This document shows positions 845 to 31,367 of a DNA stretch of 35,888 nt, in pieces. The stretch comes from a virus. Lineage: Duplodnaviria; Caudoviricetes. The stretch is taken from positions 1-35,888 of IMG/VR virus record IMGVR_UViG_3300030613_000136, one strand, 5' to 3'. The notes under the pieces were generated by a model. That model was given only the letters and a program-made list of their open reading frames with translations. It searched no databases and was not told the origin of the DNA. Each line of letters starts with the position of its first letter. The first letter of the stretch is position 1. The translations under genes and the position numbers were made by a program.

Positions 845-1375
845 TCAAGAGACAGGAAGCACCGACGCTACAGGCGGTGCAGACGTTGTTGTGGCTAACA
901 CTTGCAATTTTGTCGTCCACGAATAAAGCGTTTTAGACAACACAAGAGAAACTTCTTCAAGAGTCATCGGCGAATCACGTGAATTAATCATCTTCAGTAT
1001 ATCGGCTGACAACCCAGCAGCTGAAGCAGAGACTGAAATCGGAACAACTGGATTTGTTGGTATGAAGCCCGGCCCCGCAAAAATGACAGGCGACCAATAC
1101 GCAGCAAACCCTGGACCGAAGCCCGCCAGCAAAGGCATTGCTAACAACGATTGAAGAGCAGATTTCAATCCTGGAGAAACTACAGTTAGCGCTCCCGCCA
1201 TTGGCACGCTTGAAACAACCCAGTTATCGTATGCTTCTGTCAAAGCAGCGCAAACTTCGTTTGGAATGCTTGGGTGAGGAGGAGTTTGCGGATAAGCTAC
1301 CTTTCTTCTTCCTTCTCGCAGATCGTTGAACACGTTAAGCAATTGAAGCTGCAACGTGTTTTGCATCAACGTCAT
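845..1375 (-). CDS. Hypothetical virion/baseplate-associated protein
   Basis: Ala/Pro/Gly-rich ORF between spike and gp25 genes; ATGA overlap sets start at 1375. Confidence 0.6.
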   Translation of the reverse strand: MTLMQNTLQLQLLNVFNDLREGRRKVAYPQTPPHPSIPNEVCAALTEAYDNWVVSSVPMAGALTVVSPGLKSALQSLLAMPLLAGFGPGFAAYWSPVIFAGPGFIPTNPVVPISVSASAAGLSADILKMINSRDSPMTLEEVSLVLSKTLYSWTTKLQVLATTTSAPPVASVLPVS

Positions 1376-2160
1376 TTGAAACACTTCTGCCCAAGTTCTG
1401 CTAACTTGGCTATAGCAGTGGGCCATTGAGCAGTTGTCAATGGATGAGAACCTGGAGAAGGAGATGCTAACGAACTCGCTTCAATCGAAGACGGACCTAG
1501 TCCAGCTGGTAGACTAGGACCCATCGACGTCATGTGACCATGATTAGCTACGAGAAAAATCAACGTGTTGAAAAGTTCTTTCCAGTCATTTCCAGCAGAT
1601 CCAGCAAGTTTGAAATGAGGAGAGTCCACAGTCACGTCTGAATCTTTGATAGTTAGCTGAGTTTGACCGAAGTTAACGTTTAGCTTGTCTCCGTCGAATT
1701 CAACAAAATTCGAACCAAAGTTCACTACAAACTTGTCACCACTCAAAAACACATAGTGTTTGTCGTCATCGTTCACACAAATTTTTGTATCTACTCTAGA
1801 AACTATTCTTACGAAGTCAGATTTCAAAACAACTGCTGGAACTGCGTTGCTAGATTTCTGTATAGACGAAATTTCAAGATTGTCGTCTACGTTAGACTTC
1901 ATCGTGACATAAACGAAAGATTTGTCTGCAGAAAAATCAGGATCAGAATCAGCTCTACCAGCGATTAAATGAATAGTTCCTGTTCCTTCTCCTTTGCCAG
2001 ATGCGTCTATATGACCTAAGCCATCGTCTATCGAAGCCTGTCCCGACGCTGCTCTGTCTGTGCCAAGAACTATTAAAGCGTTGTTTGAACCTTCCGCTAC
2101 GTAGTCTCCGTAACGACGAACAAACTTAGGAACTTGTTCTACAATCACGTCGTATGACAT
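1372..2160 (-). CDS. Baseplate central spike, C-terminal part (beta-helix with HxH apex)
   Basis: GD...EGSNNALIVLG, short beta-strand repeats and C-terminal HGHMTSMGPS, as in gpV/gp138-type spikes. Confidence 0.65.
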   Translation of the reverse strand: MSYDVIVEQVPKFVRRYGDYVAEGSNNALIVLGTDRAASGQASIDDGLGHIDASGKGEGTGTIHLIAGRADSDPDFSADKSFVYVTMKSNVDDNLEISSIQKSSNAVPAVVLKSDFVRIVSRVDTKICVNDDDKHYVFLSGDKFVVNFGSNFVEFDGDKLNVNFGQTQLTIKDSDVTVDSPHFKLAGSAGNDWKELFNTLIFLVANHGHMTSMGPSLPAGLGPSSIEASSLASPSPGSHPLTTAQWPTAIAKLAELGQKCFK

Positions 2161-2166
2161 GTCATT

Positions 2167-2778
2167 TCACTTGAAAAGAGAACTCAGTTTATCTGTTCTT
2201 TTAGTCTCTGCTGCAGATTCGTCGGTGTCAAACTTTTTCGAATTAGACGATGACAAACCTTTAGTGTCTGAAAACTTGTCAGACAAATTTGACCCGTCTT
2301 GTTCTACGAAAAAAGAACTGCCAGGTGCGTAATTTACACCGACATGCCCAGCAACTTTCGATGTCCAAAGTCCGTGCTGCTGACTAGCATCTTCGAAAAG
2401 AACGTAAACGTGTTCACCTGGCTTGATGGGTATTGACATGTTCTCTGGAAAAAACGGCCAAAACACTTTCAAATTATCGTCTGAAGAAAACTTGTCAAAT
2501 CCATCAGTCAGTAAACGAGCCTTTATGCTATTCGGAGGATTGCTTGGTCCAACTCTTGCTTGAACATTGAACTTTTTGCCGCTTACGTTATGCTCTACTC
2601 CTCCAGACGAATCTGGATTTTCTAGATTGCCGCCTTCTACATCAACTGCAACGACAAGCGCACGAAAAAGAAATTGATTATCGTTAGCTTCGCGATCGCC
2701 AACGACATTTTTTCGTATTACTTCTTGAAAAAAGAGTTCAGGTCTTCTAAAACGATCTCTAGAAAAATCTGATGTCAC
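2167..2778 (-). CDS. Baseplate spike/hub OB-fold protein (gp5 N-terminal-like)
   Basis: WPFFP...PIKPGEHVYVLF OB-fold-like motif; baseplate context. Confidence 0.6.
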   Translation of the reverse strand: MTSDFSRDRFRRPELFFQEVIRKNVVGDREANDNQFLFRALVVAVDVEGGNLENPDSSGGVEHNVSGKKFNVQARVGPSNPPNSIKARLLTDGFDKFSSDDNLKVFWPFFPENMSIPIKPGEHVYVLFEDASQQHGLWTSKVAGHVGVNYAPGSSFFVEQDGSNLSDKFSDTKGLSSSNSKKFDTDESAAETKRTDKLSSLFK

Positions 2779-25117: not shown

Positions 25118-25978
25118 CTACTTCGTCGTTTTCCAACCTTCGCAAAGTTCAGAACCGTTGTACGGGCACTTGTCGCCGTATTTGCTCACGCACATGTCTT
25201 TGTTATGACGAATAGTTCCTTCGTTCAATCTCTTATCCATGTCTGTTATATCTGCGTTGATATCGTCAAGAGCTCTTTGGACCGACACTGGACCGGCGCT
25301 GACCGGAAAAAATTCGATTGCAGGCGAACCCTTCGGTGGCGTTCTCTTCAGCAATACGAACGCAACTCTGACGTTTTTGGGGTCTAAATTGAATTTCTTG
25401 CACAAGAAATGTTTGTACAGAAACAACTGAGCATGCAAGTTTCTGTCTCTTCTTTTGTCGATCGTCCATCCGAAAGAGCACGTCTTGAAGTCAATAACAT
25501 ATAGTATCGTGTTTCCTCTTACGTCTTTTGTCTTGATCACGAAGTCGATGAAACCTTTGAAATCAATCTTGATGTTGTCAGTTCTTCCTATCGGAATTCT
25601 TATCTCGTGTTCGTTGAACATCACTTCTGCATTTCTTAATTCTTCACACGAGTCAAATTCTTCAAGAATTCTCTTGCCAGCAGAGACGAATATCTCTGGA
25701 CCTGCTGTTCGTTCTTTTTCTCTGTATTTGTCTTTGTTCTTTTCGAACAACTCTCTGAACATCTTCTCAAAAAATATTATCGTGTCAGCGATAGACAACG
25801 AATCTTTCTTCGTTTTGTAACGTTCTATAGACTTGTGGATTGAAGTTCCAAAGTCCAAATGAACGCCAAACGATTGTTCGAAGTGACAGTCAACTACGTC
25901 AAGTTTCCAACGCATCTGACAGCCGTTTTTGTAAGACTGCCAAGCGCTGAAAGAAATTCTATCTGGAAGTGAAGGCAA
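25118..25978 (-). CDS. PD-(D/E)XK nuclease, Cas4/RecB-like
   Basis: FGTSIH, E, GFID, IDFKT, QL..Y, N- and C-terminal Cys. Confidence 0.88.
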   Translation of the reverse strand: MPSLPDRISFSAWQSYKNGCQMRWKLDVVDCHFEQSFGVHLDFGTSIHKSIERYKTKKDSLSIADTIIFFEKMFRELFEKNKDKYREKERTAGPEIFVSAGKRILEEFDSCEELRNAEVMFNEHEIRIPIGRTDNIKIDFKGFIDFVIKTKDVRGNTILYVIDFKTCSFGWTIDKRRDRNLHAQLFLYKHFLCKKFNLDPKNVRVAFVLLKRTPPKGSPAIEFFPVSAGPVSVQRALDDINADITDMDKRLNEGTIRHNKDMCVSKYGDKCPYNGSELCEGWKTTK

Positions 25979-25985
25979 GAAGCAC

Positions 25986-26246
25986 TTACACTTTCTTCAA
26001 AAGAACGACAAGATCGTCATCGAAGACCAGACTCTTCTTCCACTGCTCGTTAAGATCTTTCATTCTTTCGATTCTAGAAACTTTGAAATCGTTTCCGTTT
26101 ACTACGAAAACTTGTTCGATAAATTCAGTTGGAGTCAATTCTGTGATCTTGTCTTGAAGCTCTTTGTTCGCCAGTTCAAGCTGGATTACTCTATCTGCAA
26201 GTTCAAGCTGGATTACTCTATCTGCAAGTTCTTGTTTGGATGACAT
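25986..26246 (-). CDS. Hypothetical protein with duplicated 9-aa segment
   Basis: ELADRVIQL x2; GAGG SD. Confidence 0.65.
   Translation of the reverse strand: MSSKQELADRVIQLELADRVIQLELANKELQDKITELTPTEFIEQVFVVNGNDFKVSRIERMKDLNEQWKKSLVFDDDLVVLLKKV
26173..26231. repeat. Perfect 27-bp tandem duplication
   Basis: AGTTCAAGCTGGATTACTCTATCTGCA x2 + AGTTC. Confidence 0.95.
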
Positions 26247-26507
26247 TCACGCGGCCTCGATAACACAGTGACACAATTTGTTTGACGACAGCGGGCGCCC
26301 TCGTGTAATCTCGAACTTCTTGTCTTCGTGACAGAATGCGATTACGGTCTTCGCAACACTGTTCTCTTCCTTCATCTCGACCAGGGCGAGGCGGAGTCGT
26401 TTTTCTTCGCCAGCGCGGCGAAGGAAGTCTCTGCCTTCTTTGCTAAGTTGAGCTTTCATTTGACTCATCCTGTATAATCTAGTCTTATATGATTTAGATC
26501 TAATCAA
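26247..26507 (-). CDS. Hypothetical basic protein (start uncertain, possibly 26468)
   Basis: ORF abutting the next gene (TGA ATG). Confidence 0.5.
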   Translation of the reverse strand: MIRSKSYKTRLYRMSQMKAQLSKEGRDFLRRAGEEKRLRLALVEMKEENSVAKTVIAFCHEDKKFEITRGRPLSSNKLCHCVIEAA

Positions 26508-26649
26508 CTATTCTACTTTATCACTATTGAACTATTTTCAAGTCAATTTGCTAATCCCCTTAAATAGCTAATTGAACTATTTGTTAAAGGCATTTATTTT
26601 TCCTAATACAGAAAATAAATACTAATACGTTAATGATATCAATTACTTA
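26500..26649. promoter_or_regulatory. AT-rich intergenic element with direct and inverted repeats
   Basis: ATTGAACTATTT at 26526 and 26571; ATTTATTTT/AAAATAAAT inverted repeat at ~26592-26619. Confidence 0.5.
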
Positions 26650-27186
26650 TCATCCTCGCCACGACGCTCTGAATTCCCAGTTCTTTCTGAAAATTTCCTG
26701 AGAGGGATCTCTCTTGATAAGATCATTGTAATATTTTTTTTGAGTTATGCACATCGCATCGACAAACGTTTTCCCCATAGAATTTATCGCAAGCAAGCTT
26801 TTCGGTCCAAGAATTCCGTCTTGCTCTTCCGCAGGAAGAGAAGCTGCTCTTTGAGCTACAATTATAGCATTACGCGGAGAAGCGTTTACTCCAAAGTCGT
26901 AGATCTTTGTAGCTGAAATCTGATCTGACACGAATTCGTATTTGAACGGATCCCAAAAATATTTCTTGTAGAATTTAACAGACGTCGCAAGAGGCAATTT
27001 TCGTATGATCGTGTAATCTCCCCAGTCGTCAACGTCTATATCGAGATCTCTTGGTTTGAGTCCAAGACGTTTGACTATCAAGCTAGAAACACCCCACATG
27101 GTAGGACCGCCTTTGTCATTCTTGACGTTAGCATACCCTCCCTCAGCCTGCTGAACTCTTTTGTGTGCTACGTAGAAGTCACTCAT
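26650..27186 (-). CDS. Endolysin, glycoside hydrolase family 108
   Basis: EGGYAN...DKGGPT.WG, FY...FW, DG.LGP.SL.AIN, F...W..R. Confidence 0.92.
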   Translation of the reverse strand: MSDFYVAHKRVQQAEGGYANVKNDKGGPTMWGVSSLIVKRLGLKPRDLDIDVDDWGDYTIIRKLPLATSVKFYKKYFWDPFKYEFVSDQISATKIYDFGVNASPRNAIIVAQRAASLPAEEQDGILGPKSLLAINSMGKTFVDAMCITQKKYYNDLIKRDPSQEIFRKNWEFRASWRG

Positions 27187-27262
27187 GGTTTGGCTCCGTT
27201 TGGTACGCTCGAATCACGCCGTTGCATCGAGCTCATCCAAATTTAATTAGCCATGAAACCAT
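27184..27262 (-). promoter_or_regulatory. Long interrupted RNA hairpin covering the endolysin SD/start
   Basis: Nested pairings ATGGTT/AACCAT, TGGCT/AGCCA, TTTGG/CCAAA, GCTCGA/TCGAGC. Confidence 0.65.
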
Positions 27263-27267
27263 ATTGA

Positions 27268-27966
27268 CTACTTTTTGCGTGCTTCGGCGACGTCTGAGCT
27301 ATTTCGAGCGAATTTCACTTTCGAGTGATCGCAGAAGCAGAGATCGTCAAACAAACAGCAAAAGAAGTCAGAAAGGCTGAACGAATCATACAACTTTCTA
27401 ATCTTGACTTTGTCTATTTCGCGATTGATCGTTCGCTCGTAAAACACCTTCTTGCACTTCTTCCACTTCGTTTCTTCAAGCTCGACGTGATCGACGATCC
27501 TGATTGGAAGTTGAGCGAGTTCACTCCAACGAGTAAACTCGAGTCCCCAAGGAATTTTGCTGTTGGGATTCTCTCCGTTGCAGCCTAACGATACGCTCAC
27601 ACTAGGCTTTTTTATTTTTCCATAGTTGTTTATTTCAATCAACTTGCTCAGGACTATCGCGCTCACGTCTTTCATTTCTGAAAGATCTGGATTTTTTGTT
27701 GTCTGCCATTCTTCAAGGTTGTTAGAAAAAGATCTACCCGTTCCAGTCACGAGAGAGATAGCTAGTCGAAGATCTGGAGACATATTTCTCATAATGCAAA
27801 AAAGATCTTCGAGTTTGACTTCACCGACGAGTTCAAAAGAAGATCGCCAATGTCTAAGAAAAGTGATGTTTAACTTCATCTTTACGTATTTTTCTCTCTT
27901 GCAAGACCAAACCCAAAAATCATTTTTGTCGAGCAACACTTCTTCTCCGCGTTCTCTGTCGTTCAT
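27268..27966 (-). CDS. Hypothetical protein
   Basis: Long ORF; ATGA overlap sets start at 27966. Confidence 0.65.
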   Translation of the reverse strand: MNDRERGEEVLLDKNDFWVWSCKREKYVKMKLNITFLRHWRSSFELVGEVKLEDLFCIMRNMSPDLRLAISLVTGTGRSFSNNLEEWQTTKNPDLSEMKDVSAIVLSKLIEINNYGKIKKPSVSVSLGCNGENPNSKIPWGLEFTRWSELAQLPIRIVDHVELEETKWKKCKKVFYERTINREIDKVKIRKLYDSFSLSDFFCCLFDDLCFCDHSKVKFARNSSDVAEARKK

Positions 27967-28415
27967 CTGTTTCCTTTCACTCTCACACCAAAAAATCTGC
28001 CAGAGCTTGACTTCCACACTTTTTTCAATCTCTTAGACTCTATTATTCTCACGCCATGTTCTTTTTTGTTTCTTTTAGAATTAGACGAATCGAAAACGAT
28101 GAAATTATTTCCGATCAGACCGCCTATGACCATCCAGTGTTGCATATTGTTGCTACAAACAATCACTGGAAATCCGAAGCACAACGAATTCATCGCAAAG
28201 TCGTTGGCGACGTTCCAGTCTGTCGTGTCGACAATTTCGTATTCGAACTTGAATTCTTTCAACGCAGTCGTGATACCTAAATCGCCAGTTCCATCTTTCT
28301 TCGTAGTCATTGTAAATTTTTTTACAACATTTTCAGAAAGATTTCTACGAAAGCATTTTGCCGCGTTCATTATCGCGATGACGCCGCAAGAATACGAATT
28401 CTTCTGCAATCTCAA
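27963..28415 (-). CDS. C39-like cysteine peptidase
   Basis: Q...YSCG, GT, HWMV, FD. Confidence 0.8.
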   Translation of the reverse strand: MRLQKNSYSCGVIAIMNAAKCFRRNLSENVVKKFTMTTKKDGTGDLGITTALKEFKFEYEIVDTTDWNVANDFAMNSLCFGFPVIVCSNNMQHWMVIGGLIGNNFIVFDSSNSKRNKKEHGVRIIESKRLKKVWKSSSGRFFGVRVKGNR

Positions 28416-28419
28416 AAAT

Positions 28420-28536
28420 TCAGTCCTCGCAGCATTTCTTTTTTCTAGTTTTTTCGTTGTTCAACTTCACGAGACCGCATCTTCGGCAGACAAGCCACGG
28501 AAAAACCTTGTGCAAAATTTCATACACGTGTTTCAT
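28420..28536 (-). CDS. 38-aa Zn-finger-like protein (absent from ORF track)
   Basis: MKHVYEILHKVFPWLVCRRCGLVKLNNEKTRKKKCCED; ATGA overlap, fills the gap. Confidence 0.65.
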   Translation of the reverse strand: MKHVYEILHKVFPWLVCRRCGLVKLNNEKTRKKKCCED

Positions 28537-28940
28537 CGCTTCACTTTCTTAGTCGAAAGATTGACTGTCGGATTGAACTCCCAGCGTGTTACGTTGTCAA
28601 ACCCTGCGCATCTCAGCACAGAAACCATGTCGTCACCACGCTCTTTGTTCTTGCTGTGGACTATTATTTGACGTGGTCTCAAATCTTTTGGCATTTCGAT
28701 CATGAACATACACACGTCCATGCCGTTAGCTTCTAAATCACAGTCTGGGCCTTGCAAGACAGAAACATATTTGAAATTGTTAAGATCGTGATCTAACATG
28801 ACGCAGTCGAATTTGCTTGACGCCAACGCTGCTATACACTCATCGAAAGTGCGAGTCGTTGTAACATCATGTGTGTCGCTGAGTTGTTCTACGAAATACG
28901 CGTGACGAAAATCATCGTCGTCAAGAACAAGAATTTTCAT
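28533..28940 (-). CDS. Stand-alone receiver domain, cyclic-phosphate-processing (cREC) type
   Basis: ILVLDD...R, LDHDL, NG.DV, IIVHS.N...G..M. Confidence 0.78.
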   Translation of the reverse strand: MKILVLDDDDFRHAYFVEQLSDTHDVTTTRTFDECIAALASSKFDCVMLDHDLNNFKYVSVLQGPDCDLEANGMDVCMFMIEMPKDLRPRQIIVHSKNKERGDDMVSVLRCAGFDNVTRWEFNPTVNLSTKKVKR

Positions 28941-28941
28941 A

Positions 28942-29012
28942 TGACCTCGGCGAGGTTCGAACTCGCATTCACGGCTTGAAGGGCCGTTATCCTGCCGTTA
29001 GATGACGAGGCC
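28942..29012 (-). tRNA. tRNA-Glu(UUC), C33 variant, no encoded CCA
   Basis: Acceptor GGCCTCG/CGAGGTC; D-stem ATCT/GGAT (U11-A24, U13.G22); AC arm ACGGC-CCTTCAA-GCCGT; 4-nt variable loop; T arm GCGAG-TTCGAAC-CTCGC. Confidence 0.88.
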
Positions 29013-29084
29013 AAAAGACGCTGCGTAGTTTGAGTCGACATCGTCAAATGTTGTTCCTCATTTCCGTAGCGTCCATTGATAACT

Positions 29085-29098
29085 ATTGTACTACGGAA
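29085..29098 (-). promoter_or_regulatory. Variant promoter motif TTCCGTAGTACAAT between the tRNAs
   Basis: 12/14 match to the recurrent motif; followed by GTTATCA as at the 23723 copy. Confidence 0.5.
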
Positions 29099-29129
29099 TT
29101 TCAGAATTTGATTTTGTCGTATGTCGAAG

Positions 29130-29202
29130 TGCTAGCTGAAGGATTCGAACCTTCATCGTGTCGATTACAGATCGACAGCTTTGCCATTTAAGCTAAACTA
29201 GC
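29130..29202 (-). tRNA. tRNA-Thr(UGU), C33 variant, no encoded CCA
   Basis: Acceptor GCTAGTT/AGCTAGC (C2-G71); D-stem GCTT/AAGC; AC arm GTCGA-TCTGTAA-TCGAC; T arm GAAGG-TTCGAAT-CCTTC. Confidence 0.88.
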
Positions 29203-29651
29203 ATTAGCAACGGAAAAACTTCGTTCTCTTTGTCAAGCGATTTTAAGTAGAATTTCCCGTGACGATCGACCAAGAAAACGTGCTTTTTCAAATCGTTGTA
29301 ATGAGATATCGTGTTCTCTGTTCCTCCCGTCCTGTCATCGTGGACTAAGGCGAAACCAACGTCTGAATTTTCAGCTATCGTAAGGTTTCTAGCGTACGCA
29401 GCTTTCGCGTATTCCCAGCGTGAAACATATGTCACTTTTGGAACAGGAAATTCTAGAAGTTCAACGTGAAAAGATTTTGCCGCGCTAGCTGCGAAGTTGT
29501 CTGCTCCTTTCTTGCATGCACCAGACACGACAACTATTTTTCTTTTCGTGTCAACGTCTTTCATCATCGAGACGATCGAAAAGACAATCCTCATGTCTTG
29601 AAGACTGTCTCTTCGTCTGCTTCCGACTATTCCAATTCGCAGAATACTCAA
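29193..29651 (-). CDS. SLOG-superfamily (DprA/YspA-like) protein
   Basis: IGIVGSR, VSGAC.KGAD..A, ARN..IA..SD, GGT.NTI. Confidence 0.82.
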   Translation of the reverse strand: MSILRIGIVGSRRRDSLQDMRIVFSIVSMMKDVDTKRKIVVVSGACKKGADNFAASAAKSFHVELLEFPVPKVTYVSRWEYAKAAYARNLTIAENSDVGFALVHDDRTGGTENTISHYNDLKKHVFLVDRHGKFYLKSLDKENEVFPLLMLV

Positions 29652-29974
29652 TACACTTTCACAATCTTGAACTGTTGTTCTTTGCTTCTGAGATCAACGT
29701 ACAATATTCCGTCTTCGTATGCAGCTTGAGAATCACAGATCACAAAATCAGGTCCAAAGCTAGACGCTGGAAAATCTAGAATTTCATTTTCTGCCGATTC
29801 AGGCGTTTTCAATGAACGGTATTTGACCCTTAGAAGTTTATCGTCGTAAGAAACTTCGATGTCTTTCTTTTTTACGCCAGGGATGTAAAGTTTGAGCGTT
29901 ACAATGTTGTCGATACGATCAATATCGTAATTCACTTCAGTACCAACTTTCTCGTAGTAACTCCAGAATTTCAT
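29648..29974 (-). CDS. Hsp20/alpha-crystallin small heat-shock protein
   Basis: PGVKKKDIEV, A.YEDGIL.V. Confidence 0.85.
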   Translation of the reverse strand: MKFWSYYEKVGTEVNYDIDRIDNIVTLKLYIPGVKKKDIEVSYDDKLLRVKYRSLKTPESAENEILDFPASSFGPDFVICDSQAAYEDGILYVDLRSKEQQFKIVKVY

Positions 29975-29986
29975 GTTAATTTCCTT

Positions 29987-30406
29987 TCAAGCTTCGTTTT
30001 GCGTTTTCGCCCATGATACATACTTCTTTAATTCTTTGTCTTCTACGTCGTCCACTATCTCGCCTTTCACGAACATGTTATAGCTGTCTGCTCCGTACTT
30101 TCCGATTCCCGGCAACTCTTTCACGTCATCGAATCCGCGCAGAAATGCCTTGCTCATCTCGATTAACGCAGAGGCCCGTCGGTTATAAAAACCAATTGGC
30201 CTTAGGATTTCCACCACATCTCCTATTTCAGCAGTACAGAGGGCCTCGGGGGTGGACCACGACTCAAGGATGTTAAGCATCACAGGCAAGGCTGCCACTG
30301 ACGACGTCTTGTTGAGCAAGATCACCACGACTAACAGTTTCCAAGGTTGGTCACGAAGAAATTCCTGGACTAGAGAATACGGAGAAATTTCAAGAGGAGT
30401 TTTCAA
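29987..30406 (-). CDS. HhH-GPD DNA glycosylase, MBD4-like
   Basis: PWKLLV.VILLNKT, LPGIGKYGADSY..F, DKEL..Y. Confidence 0.85.
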   Translation of the reverse strand: MKTPLEISPYSLVQEFLRDQPWKLLVVVILLNKTSSVAALPVMLNILESWSTPEALCTAEIGDVVEILRPIGFYNRRASALIEMSKAFLRGFDDVKELPGIGKYGADSYNMFVKGEIVDDVEDKELKKYVSWAKTQNEA

Positions 30407-30888
30407 ACTCGCCTCTTCATCATAGACTCTATGACTTTGAATTTGTCTTTTCTAGAGATCCTGTCTAAAAATGTTTTACCGTTCAAGTGGTCGCACTCGT
30501 GTTGTAAAACGAAAGCGTTGAAATTTGCTGCGCTCAAATTGTGACTGACGAATCTTTCGTCATAATATTCGCAATCGACTGACAAACTCCTGTCGATTGC
30601 CAAGGTTATTCCCGGGAAAGACAAACAACCTTCGCTGCTCAATCTCGTTTCTCCGTTGAGATATATCGTGGGATTGATCAACATTGGAGGCAGAAGTGTG
30701 TGTCTTTCATCTACAACGATGACTGATTTCATGATTCCTATTTGGTTCGCTGCCAAAGCAACACCGTTTTTCGAGTGCATGATTTCCATCATCTCTTCTA
30801 CGATCTTATTCAAGTCTTTGTCGACTTCGAAATTCCACTTGTTCGTTGGAGTCGACAAAGACTTGTTTGGATATCTTAAGATCTTCAT
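30403..30888 (-). CDS. def: Peptide deformylase
   Basis: GVALAANQIG, EGCLS, QHECDHLNG. Confidence 0.95.
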   Translation of the reverse strand: MKILRYPNKSLSTPTNKWNFEVDKDLNKIVEEMMEIMHSKNGVALAANQIGIMKSVIVVDERHTLLPPMLINPTIYLNGETRLSSEGCLSFPGITLAIDRSLSVDCEYYDERFVSHNLSAANFNAFVLQHECDHLNGKTFLDRISRKDKFKVIESMMKRRV

Positions 30889-31367
30889 TTGATGCTTTCT
30901 AACTTTGAAATGACAGTTTCAAGCTTTGCAACCACATCTCCTCCTGTTGCATCGTCACTCGCTCTAGCTATCTGGCAAATGAGTTCAAGACTGTCGACAG
31001 ACCACTTGATCACAGACAGAACTTGTTTTGCCATTCTGAACGCTTCGTTATTACCCCAACCGCACATCCAAGAAGTGTAACGAGTGCTTCCTTGTTCGTA
31101 AGGGTTCTGCGATTCAGGAAATCCTTTTTCAGAAGCGTATTCACCAGCATGAATGTCCATGACTATTTCGTTCAAACTGTCGAACTTTTTCGTGACAAAA
31201 TCCAAAGCAGAAAGCGTTTCCATCAACTTATTTTCTGCTTTTTCACGTTTCGACTTCTCTTCTCTCAAACTTTCGTTTACTTTGTGAAAGCAGTTGATGC
31301 AAGTCTCAAGCTGAACTTCCACACGTGAAGACAGCTCAGACGCGCAATACGAACAAACGTTTTTCAT
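30885..31367 (-). CDS. Hypothetical protein: Zn finger, coiled coil, Rmf-like motif
   Basis: CSYC/CINC; G..A...G.....NPY......W..GW. Confidence 0.6.
   Translation of the reverse strand: MKNVCSYCASELSSRVEVQLETCINCFHKVNESLREEKSKREKAENKLMETLSALDFVTKKFDSLNEIVMDIHAGEYASEKGFPESQNPYEQGSTRYTSWMCGWGNNEAFRMAKQVLSVIKWSVDSLELICQIARASDDATGGDVVAKLETVISKLESIK

What the first reader, a model, noticed from the sequence alone, without database searches (positions are those of the whole stretch)
28942..29202. Both tRNAs replace the near-invariant U33 with C
Seen: perfect 5-bp anticodon stems enclose the loops CC-TTC-AA (Glu) and TC-TGT-AA (Thr), while all other arms and identity elements are intact, so this is not general decay. 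Known: U33 forms the U-turn and is almost universal in elongator tRNAs. The same change in two unrelated tRNAs suggests selection. Inference: (a) escape from anticodon nucleases, (b) C33-to-U editing that activates the tRNAs, (c) decoys, or (d) a shifted register, CU-UCA-A and CU-GUA-A. In (d) the Glu body would read UGA, of note given the in-frame TGA junctions at the spike and sigma genes; this is the most speculative option.
Basis: partly seen in the sequence, partly recalled or inferred. Interest (0 to 1): 0.8.

Follow-up and report, generated by a model that had tools for sequence, protein, structure and literature searches.

The report
Phage tRNAs with tolerated C33
Both transfer RNA genes in this piece of an uncultured large soil phage have C instead of the almost universal U just before the anticodon; the same swap recurs in a minority of other phage tRNAs, including one that rescued E. 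coli in a published screen, so these are likely ordinary working tRNAs and not edited or stop-codon-reading ones.

Summary
Confirmed: tRNA-Glu(UUC) and tRNA-Thr(UGU) both have C33 in 7-nt loops on perfect stems; contigs from 3 runs of 2 studies agree. It is not unique. Relatives carry C33 in 29 of 341 tRNAs (never A or G), random viral loci in 13 of 561. C33 genes score as well as U33 genes, cluster by genome and isotype, and rise with GC. A natural C33 tRNA-Lys(UUU) of coliphage Bas32 was the most enriched of 10 Lys(UUU) tRNAs rescuing the nuclease AriB in E. coli (supplement of PMC12445682), so C33 likely works unedited; eight U33 tRNAs also rescued, so C33 was not needed for escape there. 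The UGA reading fails: shifted registers do not pair, TGA ends 40 of 56 genes, and the junctions are not conserved. No deaminase was found in 5 records (this contig is 18% complete). Best reading: working tRNAs with a tolerated phage loop variant; C33 as the actual escape mutation is possible but untested. Here an array of about 34 tRNAs in a syntenic relative is reduced to these two. The scan has noted C33 phage tRNAs in at least 11 other genomes.

The parts
28942..29012 (-). tRNA-Glu(UUC) gene, C33 at 28981, no encoded CCA; its 3' end lies 1 base before the ATG of the next gene
   Evidence: nearest fetched tRNAs are Glu tRNAs (7 of top 10... top two are Glu-TTC of L035 and L119)
29130..29202 (-). 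tRNA-Thr(UGU) gene, C33 at 29170, no encoded CCA; its first 10 bases overlap the end of the upstream ORF
   Evidence: nearest fetched tRNAs are Thr tRNAs (6 of top 7)
29013..29129 (-). spacer between the two tRNA genes; no further tRNA remnant
   Evidence: Rfam search to E = 10 over 25900-31000 found only the two tRNAs
28533..28940 (-). cREC receiver-like protein gene (PF20274), downstream neighbour; its homologue lies inside the tRNA array of relative G003
29193..29651 (-). SLOG/DprA-like protein gene (weak Pfam hits under the cut-off), upstream neighbour; its homologue precedes the tRNA array in G003
25118..25978 (-). PD-(D/E)XK nuclease gene, used as the clade marker; in relatives the tRNA array ends just upstream of it

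Best explanation
Both genes carry a genomic C33 on intact cloverleaves and are likely working, unedited tRNAs that a host synthetase would charge with Glu and Thr and that would read GAA/GAG and ACA-type codons, likely topping up host tRNAs during infection. Shown: the C33, the intact bodies, the recurrence of C33 (and only C) across phages. Inferred: expression, CCA addition by the host, charging and decoding. C33 is best read as the one substitution that the loop tolerates (it keeps a pyrimidine and the 2'-OH; recalled structural knowledge), appearing in phage anticodon arms that diversify fast, more often in GC-rich genomes; any nuclease resistance of these tRNAs probably comes mainly from other parts of the arm.
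For: Functional precedent: Lys_TTT_6 of coliphage Bas32 (loop CC-TTT-AA, confirmed in the GenBank record) was enriched 18.9- and 23.3-fold in the AriB rescue screen in E. coli, the highest of 10 Lys(UUU) tRNAs; 8 U33 tRNAs were also enriched (4.2-17.9) and one was not (PMC12445682 supplement). All 9 Thr(UGU) library tRNAs have U33 and the text says eight Thr(UGU) tRNAs rescued P2-OLD, so C33 was not needed for either escape. Relatives: 29 of 341 C33, none A or G; U55 is kept in 342 of 342 parsed. Rfam scores C33 median 53.9 (24 genes) versus U33 54.7 (162), p 0.27. C33 share rises with GC: 5 of 451, 11 of 258, 26 of 193 for loci under 45%, 45-55% and over 55%. In the clade it sits mostly on purine-35 anticodons (26 of 162 versus 3 of 179). 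The sister row on the marker tree, L119 (support 85/86, not starred), also has a C33 Glu(UUC) on a near-identical stem. C33 Val(GAC) and Val(CAC) sequences occur in 144 and 142 of 161 C1 mycobacteriophages.
Against: No RNA data for this phage. The window is only 43% GC, and Glu(UUC) has a pyrimidine at 35, so it falls outside both tolerance trends; Bas32 also has 2 of 24 C33 genes. Clustering by genome (permutation p 0.008) and isotype (Ile-GAU 5 of 6, Pro-UGG 5 of 13; p 0.0003) and a threefold excess beside C33 Thr genes even under 45% GC (6 of 91 versus 5 of 248) fit positive selection as well; none of these tests is corrected for kinship. The GC trend within the clade alone is weak (rho 0.53, p 0.11, 10 loci), and the purine-35 trend is absent from the random set. 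U33C impairs yeast tRNAs (PMC3664417, PMC11096365, passages) and blocks t6A37 formation by E. coli TsaBCDE on initiator tRNA (PMC8887486, passages), so a cost is expected. The Bas32 result is from a pooled overexpression screen; rescue by inhibition of the nuclease is not excluded (raised in PMC12409363).
Confidence: 0.55

Rival explanations
1. C33 is itself the selected escape change: working tRNAs that avoid a host tRNase which reads U33, cuts next to it, or needs a U33-dependent modification (t6A37, wobble U34).
For: PrrC cuts 3' of U33 and RloC makes its second cut there and prefers tRNA-Glu (PMC2610378 passages). Thr(UGU) is a target of P2-OLD and AriB. C33 blocks TsaBCDE and Elongator, and PrrC needs t6A37 (as cited in PMC12409363). 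C33 clusters by genome and isotype, is shared with the sister lineage, and the C33 Lys was the top AriB rescuer. The only two tRNAs left at this place are both C33.
Against: U33C did not change cleavage of an unmodified Glu anticodon arm by gamma-toxin (PMC2275089). U33 tRNAs escape AriB and OLD. No enrichment on U36 (t6A) tRNAs: 10 of 116 versus 19 of 225. GC explains part of the pattern. No host or nuclease is known.
Confidence: 0.25
2. Decoys or non-translating tRNA mimics that bind a nuclease or synthetase without decoding.
For: U33C lowers function and modification in model tRNAs; PMC12409363 allows that overexpressed viral tRNAs inhibit AriB.
Against: In relatives the C33 gene is often the only one seen for its anticodon within an otherwise full array; bodies match their anticodons; for P2-OLD, phage tRNAs rescued by replacement and needed the anticodon.
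Confidence: 0.08
3. C33 is edited to U by a phage or host deaminase, as for C8 (CDAT8, recalled) or the anticodon-loop C edited by TrcP.
For: Only C replaces U33 in the clade (0 A, 0 G of 29); C33 clusters by genome; bacterial anticodon-loop C-to-U editing exists (PMC9553926, abstract).
Against: No PF00383, PF14437 or PF00849 match in 5 of 5 records with C33 tRNAs, among them G009 (91% complete) and G002 (complete); no deaminase motif in six frames of G009, G003, G006 or the window. C33 is a minority within larger arrays (1 of 35 to 11 of 37). The Bas32 tRNA was enriched from a plasmid with no phage protein. 82% of this genome is unseen, and an unrecognised fold or host enzyme is not excluded.
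Confidence: 0.06
4. Early decay: last remnants of a collapsing tRNA array, kept only because they touch the flanking genes.
For: G003 has 34 tRNA genes and a tmRNA between the same flanking genes; the window has two. Thr overlaps the upstream stop codon and Glu abuts the downstream start.
Against: Every stem pair is intact, scores (54.4, 61.1) are at or above the clade median, and two first hits at the same position would be unlikely; L119 shares the Glu C33 in a full array.
Confidence: 0.04
5. Shifted register: the Glu body reads UGA (CU-UCA-A) and the Thr body reads UAC, fusing genes at in-frame TGA junctions.
For: The window's junctions at 2167/2160 and 3721/3654 are in frame with TGA, and the 2167/2160 pair is one gene in 13 of 13 distant relatives.
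Against: A +1 shift leaves 2 of 5 (Glu) and 1 of 5 (Thr) stem pairs. TGA ends 40 of 56 genes, and 10 of 14 in-frame junctions, the same share. The first junction is out of frame in 4 of 5 close relatives; the second ends in TAA or TAG in 3 of 3. C33 also occurs on Ile, Pro, Val, Ala and Phe tRNAs, where no such reading applies.
Confidence: 0.01

Closest known systems
tRNA-Lys(UUU) and tRNA-Ile(GAU) of Escherichia phage IrisVonRoten (Bas32, MZ501075), T5-like
   Same: Genomic C33 in a 7-nt loop on a perfect stem; the Lys gene has a U34-U35 anticodon like the Glu gene here and rescued AriB toxicity in a pooled screen.
   Different: Other isotypes, cultured coliphage, CCA encoded; the passages I read do not mention C33.
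tRNA-Val(GAC) and tRNA-Val(CAC) of cluster C1 mycobacteriophages; nuclease-insensitive phage tRNA hypothesis (PMC10264068)
   Same: C33 kept across most of a phage cluster (144 and 142 of 161); phage anticodon loops that differ from the host's.
   Different: Other isotypes; resistance there is predicted, and position 33 was not singled out in the third of the text that I read.
Phage tRNA-Thr(UGU) that rescue P2-OLD and AriB (PMC12445682, PMC12409363)
   Same: Same isotype as the window's Thr gene.
   Different: All 9 library genes have U33; resistance maps to the anticodon stem.
Initiator tRNA-Met of animals and plants (C33)
   Same: Natural working tRNA with C33 (PMC8887486).
   Different: Initiator, eukaryotic; bacterial TsaBCDE rejects C33.
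Edited tRNAs: TrcP (Vibrio tRNA-Tyr) and CDAT8 (Methanopyrus C8; recalled)
   Same: A genomic C where U is expected.
   Different: A dedicated deaminase exists there; none found here.

Membership tests
Elongator tRNA (RF00005) | Cloverleaf with paired stems and score over the cut-off | tested here: met
   54.4 and 61.1 bits, cut-off 29
Elongator tRNA (RF00005) | U33 | tested here: not met
   C at 28981 and 29170; a known exception class
Elongator tRNA (RF00005) | Expressed, matured, charged, decoding | not testable with these tools
   no RNA run listed
Bacterial tRNA-Glu | UUC-A37, G1-C72, U11-A24, U13-G22, A46, no base 47 (identity set recalled) | tested here: met
   read from the sequence; pair 2-71 is G-U; nearest fetched genes are Glu
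Bacterial tRNA-Thr | G1-C72, C2-G71, G35, U36 (identity set recalled) | tested here: met
   read from the sequence; nearest fetched genes are Thr
Nuclease-insensitive phage tRNAs | Phage-encoded, isotype targeted by a known tRNase | tested here: met
   baseplate and endolysin genes; Thr(UGU) and Glu are known targets
Nuclease-insensitive phage tRNAs | Resists cleavage and rescues translation | not testable with these tools
   needs assay; host unknown
C-to-U edited tRNAs (CDAT8, TrcP type) | A cognate deaminase in the genome | tested here: inconclusive
   none in 5 records incl. two at least 90% complete; this contig is 18% complete and the host is unknown
C-to-U edited tRNAs (CDAT8, TrcP type) | U in the mature RNA | not testable with these tools
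   no RNA reads
UGA suppressor or recoding tRNA | UCA centred in a 7-nt loop on a paired stem | tested here: not met
   2 of 5 pairs in the shifted register
UGA suppressor or recoding tRNA | UGA avoided as a stop, conserved in-frame UGA | tested here: not met
   40 of 56 stops are TGA; junctions not conserved

The most novel reading that the evidence does not exclude
C33 is a general phage counter-defence mark: it removes the base read by U33-dependent modification enzymes and by nucleases that cut beside it, and this phage, having shed an array of about 34 tRNAs, kept only the two whose C33 makes them resistant in its host.
Probability: 0.2. Interest if true: 0.65.

Novelty: new member of a known kind. 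Interest (0 to 1): 0.3.

Why it matters
U33 is taught as invariant, yet about 2% of viral tRNA genes and 8-9% in this clade have C there, and one such natural tRNA already scores as the best rescuer in a published screen. That makes two old questions cheap to test: how much a bacterial ribosome needs U33, and whether position 33 is an escape site for tRNA-cutting defences. This window adds one more case, not a new system.

Tried and rejected
Sequencing artefact: rejected, contigs of 3 runs from 2 studies agree. No RNA holder listed; no evidence either way. BLAST of the region against GenBank phages gave only weak generic tRNA hits (8 records). A first Thr pattern found 2 loci, neither a Thr gene. 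Genome contigs gave one weak marker hit, so the bacterial baseline is a single phylum sample, centred on a Gastranaerophilales genome. A loose pattern was too noisy and is not used. ARAGORN with introns and a lowered threshold gave 36 mostly spurious calls, not used. Promoter and terminator scan: 3 promoter-like sites against 2.9 expected, none placed to drive the tRNAs, no terminator. A t6A-only explanation: rejected, no U36 enrichment. A cyanobacterial long tRNA array had no C33 (L336), and PMC8421152 has no mention of position 33. Metagenome loci L141, L117, L119, L152 could not be searched whole for deaminases. PMC6103680 is not held, so the PrrC-t6A link is second-hand. Literature: no paper on C33 in phage tRNAs came up in searches of an open-licence library; older subscription papers on U33 substitution and T5 tRNAs are outside it. 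No host was identified.

Full report
Context. The window is a 35.9-kb fragment (18% complete) of a large tailed phage: baseplate wedge genes, a long glycosylation cluster, endolysin, peptide deformylase and a PD-(D/E)XK nuclease, on the minus strand, about 43% GC. It is held in soil and sediment metagenomes of two studies.

Observation. ARAGORN and Rfam find two tRNA genes, Glu(UUC) 28942-29012 and Thr(UGU) 29130-29202. Both have a 7-nt loop on a 5-of-5 stem with C at 33 (28981, 29170). Contigs of runs X1, X2 and X3 show no other letter over both genes; all may be sources of the window, but they come from two studies. The bodies match the anticodons: the two nearest of all fetched tRNAs to the Glu gene are Glu(UUC) genes, and 6 of the 7 nearest to the Thr gene are Thr genes.

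Relatives. Using the nuclease as marker I read the tRNA arrays that lie just upstream of it. Of 413 different 7-nt-loop tRNA genes in all 162 marker loci, 384 have U33, 29 C33, none A or G. For statistics I used 17 loci (dropping duplicates L036, L117, L126, L135, L140, L146, loci with one or two tRNAs, most distant marker hits, and 6- or 8-nt loop calls): 29 of 341, from 0 of 25 (L035) to 11 of 37 (L141). For the two isotypes, C33 is in 1 of 9 other Glu(UUC) and 1 of 12 other Thr(UGU) genes. The Glu case, L119, is the window's sister on the marker tree (85/86, not starred) and has almost the same stem, so the Glu C33 may be inherited; L119's Thr has U33. In the syntenic relative G003, 34 tRNA genes and a tmRNA fill the interval between the SLOG gene and the nuclease; the window keeps two, with no remnants.

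Baselines. In 120 viral loci picked by a Gly(UCC) motif, 13 of 561 other tRNAs have C33, 2 G and 1 A (Fisher against the clade p 3e-5). For Thr(UGU) across IMG/VR the C33 pattern hits about 330 stretches (60 of 120 confirmed) and the U33 pattern about 8,700 (107 of 120 confirmed), so roughly 2% (estimates from partial scans). In one bacterial phylum sample the strict C33 Thr pattern matched 0 of 151 genomes and the U33 form 39 of 41; the Glu pattern gave 43 rows in 101 genomes, three with C33, of which one was fetched and is an odd tRNA-Glu on a 6.9-kb contig, and two lack a paired stem by eye.

Pattern. C33 genes are not decayed: Rfam median 53.9 (24 scored, 4 unscored) against 54.7 (162 scored, 41 unscored) in 7 loci, p 0.27; U55 is kept in 342 of 342. 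C33 clusters by genome (p 0.008) and isotype (p 0.0003; Ile-GAU 5 of 6, Pro-UGG 5 of 13). Neighbours of a C33 Thr gene are C33 in 25 of 233 cases against 17 of 329 beside a U33 Thr gene (p 0.015; under 45% GC 6 of 91 against 5 of 248). It rises with GC (rho 0.77 over 26 loci; 0.53, p 0.11, in the 10 clade loci; 0.64 in the 16 random loci). In the clade it avoids C34 (3 of 118) and pyrimidine 35 (3 of 179 against 26 of 162), but not in the random set, and shows no U36 bias. From memory, the U-turn uses both the U33 imino proton and its 2'-OH bond to a purine at 35; C33 keeps only the second, which would fit the clade trend. None of these tests corrects for kinship.

Does a C33 tRNA work? The supplement of PMC12445682 (rows seen; passages in 43, 70) lists a pooled screen of 245 coliphage tRNAs in E. 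coli. Of 10 Lys(UUU) genes, one has C33; it was the most enriched under AriB (mean 21.1; the nine U33 genes 0.36 to 17.9). The gene is in the Bas32 record, where 2 of 24 tRNAs have C33 (one unannotated ARAGORN call left out). It was expressed from a plasmid without phage proteins. This supports function without phage editing, with the caveats of pooling, overexpression and possible inhibition (PMC12409363 passages). All nine Thr(UGU) genes in the library have U33 and eight Thr(UGU) genes rescued P2-OLD. C33 Val genes are in 144 and 142 of 161 C1 mycobacteriophages (PMC10264068: text part 1 of 3, supplement part 1 of 4); that lead came from earlier scan notes.

Escape. For: PrrC cuts 3' of U33 and RloC also cuts there and prefers tRNA-Glu (PMC2610378 passages); U33C blocks E. 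coli TsaBCDE (PMC8887486 passages) and Elongator (PMC11096365 passages), and PrrC needs t6A (second-hand). Against: U33C left gamma-toxin cleavage of an unmodified Glu arm unchanged (PMC2275089 passages); U33 tRNAs escape AriB and OLD; no U36 bias. A cost is suggested by the yeast U33C phenotype (PMC3664417 passages). Open, about 0.25.

Editing. No deaminase or TrcP-type pseudouridine synthase family in G000, G002, G003, G006 or G009 while controls rang in 10-12 of 14 genomes, and no zinc-deaminase motif in four of them. TrcP was seen as abstract only; CDAT8 is recalled. Not excluded for the unseen 82% or for the host.

Register shift and UGA. Shifted registers keep at most 2 of 5 pairs. TGA is the main stop (40 of 56) and is not over-represented at in-frame junctions (10 of 14). 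The gene pair at 2778-1372 is one gene in 13 of 13 distant relatives but split in all 5 close ones, out of frame in 4; the junction before 3654 ends in TAA or TAG in 3 of 3 relatives. Rejected.

Verdict. Shown: sequence, intactness, recurrence, failure of the UGA idea. Inferred: expression, charging, decoding, purpose. I found no paper that discusses C33 in phage tRNAs (searches; open-licence library only; PMC11231383 and PMC8421152 passages added nothing), but such genes are in published data and the scan has 12 similar notes in at least 11 genomes. New member of a known kind; interest 0.3.

Noticed in passing
window 28942-29202 against G003:9261-19047: The tRNA array of relatives (34 genes plus tmRNA in G003) is reduced to two genes between the same flanking genes.
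   Followed up: partly
window 29193-29202 and 28940-28950: The upstream ORF's stop codon lies inside the tRNA-Thr 5' end, and the tRNA-Glu acceptor strand carries a GAGG a few bases before the next ATG, so it may double as the ribosome-binding site.
   Followed up: no
window 1372-2778: Two ORFs that are a single gene in 13 of 13 distant relatives are split in this phage and all 5 close relatives, mostly out of frame.
   Followed up: partly
L037:2624-2911: A phage relative encodes a bacterial type A RNase P RNA (166.9 bits) inside its tRNA array.
   Followed up: no
L003, L035, L037-L040, L119, L122, L152: 24 of 34 tRNA-Leu genes in ten clade loci are under 80 nt, lacking the long variable arm usual for bacterial tRNA-Leu.
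   Followed up: no
L141:588-9446: GC-rich relative with 11 of 37 C33 tRNAs, a short-arm tRNA with UGA anticodon, a long-arm Ile(UAU), a 6-nt-loop tRNA and an HNH-like ORF in the array.
   Followed up: partly
clade loci: A54 in 25 of 342 and non-U at position 8 in 57 of 342 parsed tRNAs (position 8 parsing is approximate); purine 32 in 16 of 343.
   Followed up: no
L335:2038-2227 (G107:C274): A bacterial contig with a C33 tRNA-Glu beside an 8-nt-loop tRNA-like gene with a similar acceptor stem.
   Followed up: no
window 4389-25088: About 20 kb of sugar-nucleotide, methyltransferase and glycosyltransferase genes, with transaldolase and heptose-pathway enzymes.
   Followed up: no
PMC12445682 supplement, Ile_GAT rows: At least five coliphage Ile(GAU) library tRNAs have C33, the same isotype that is C33 in 5 of 6 clade loci.
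   Followed up: partly
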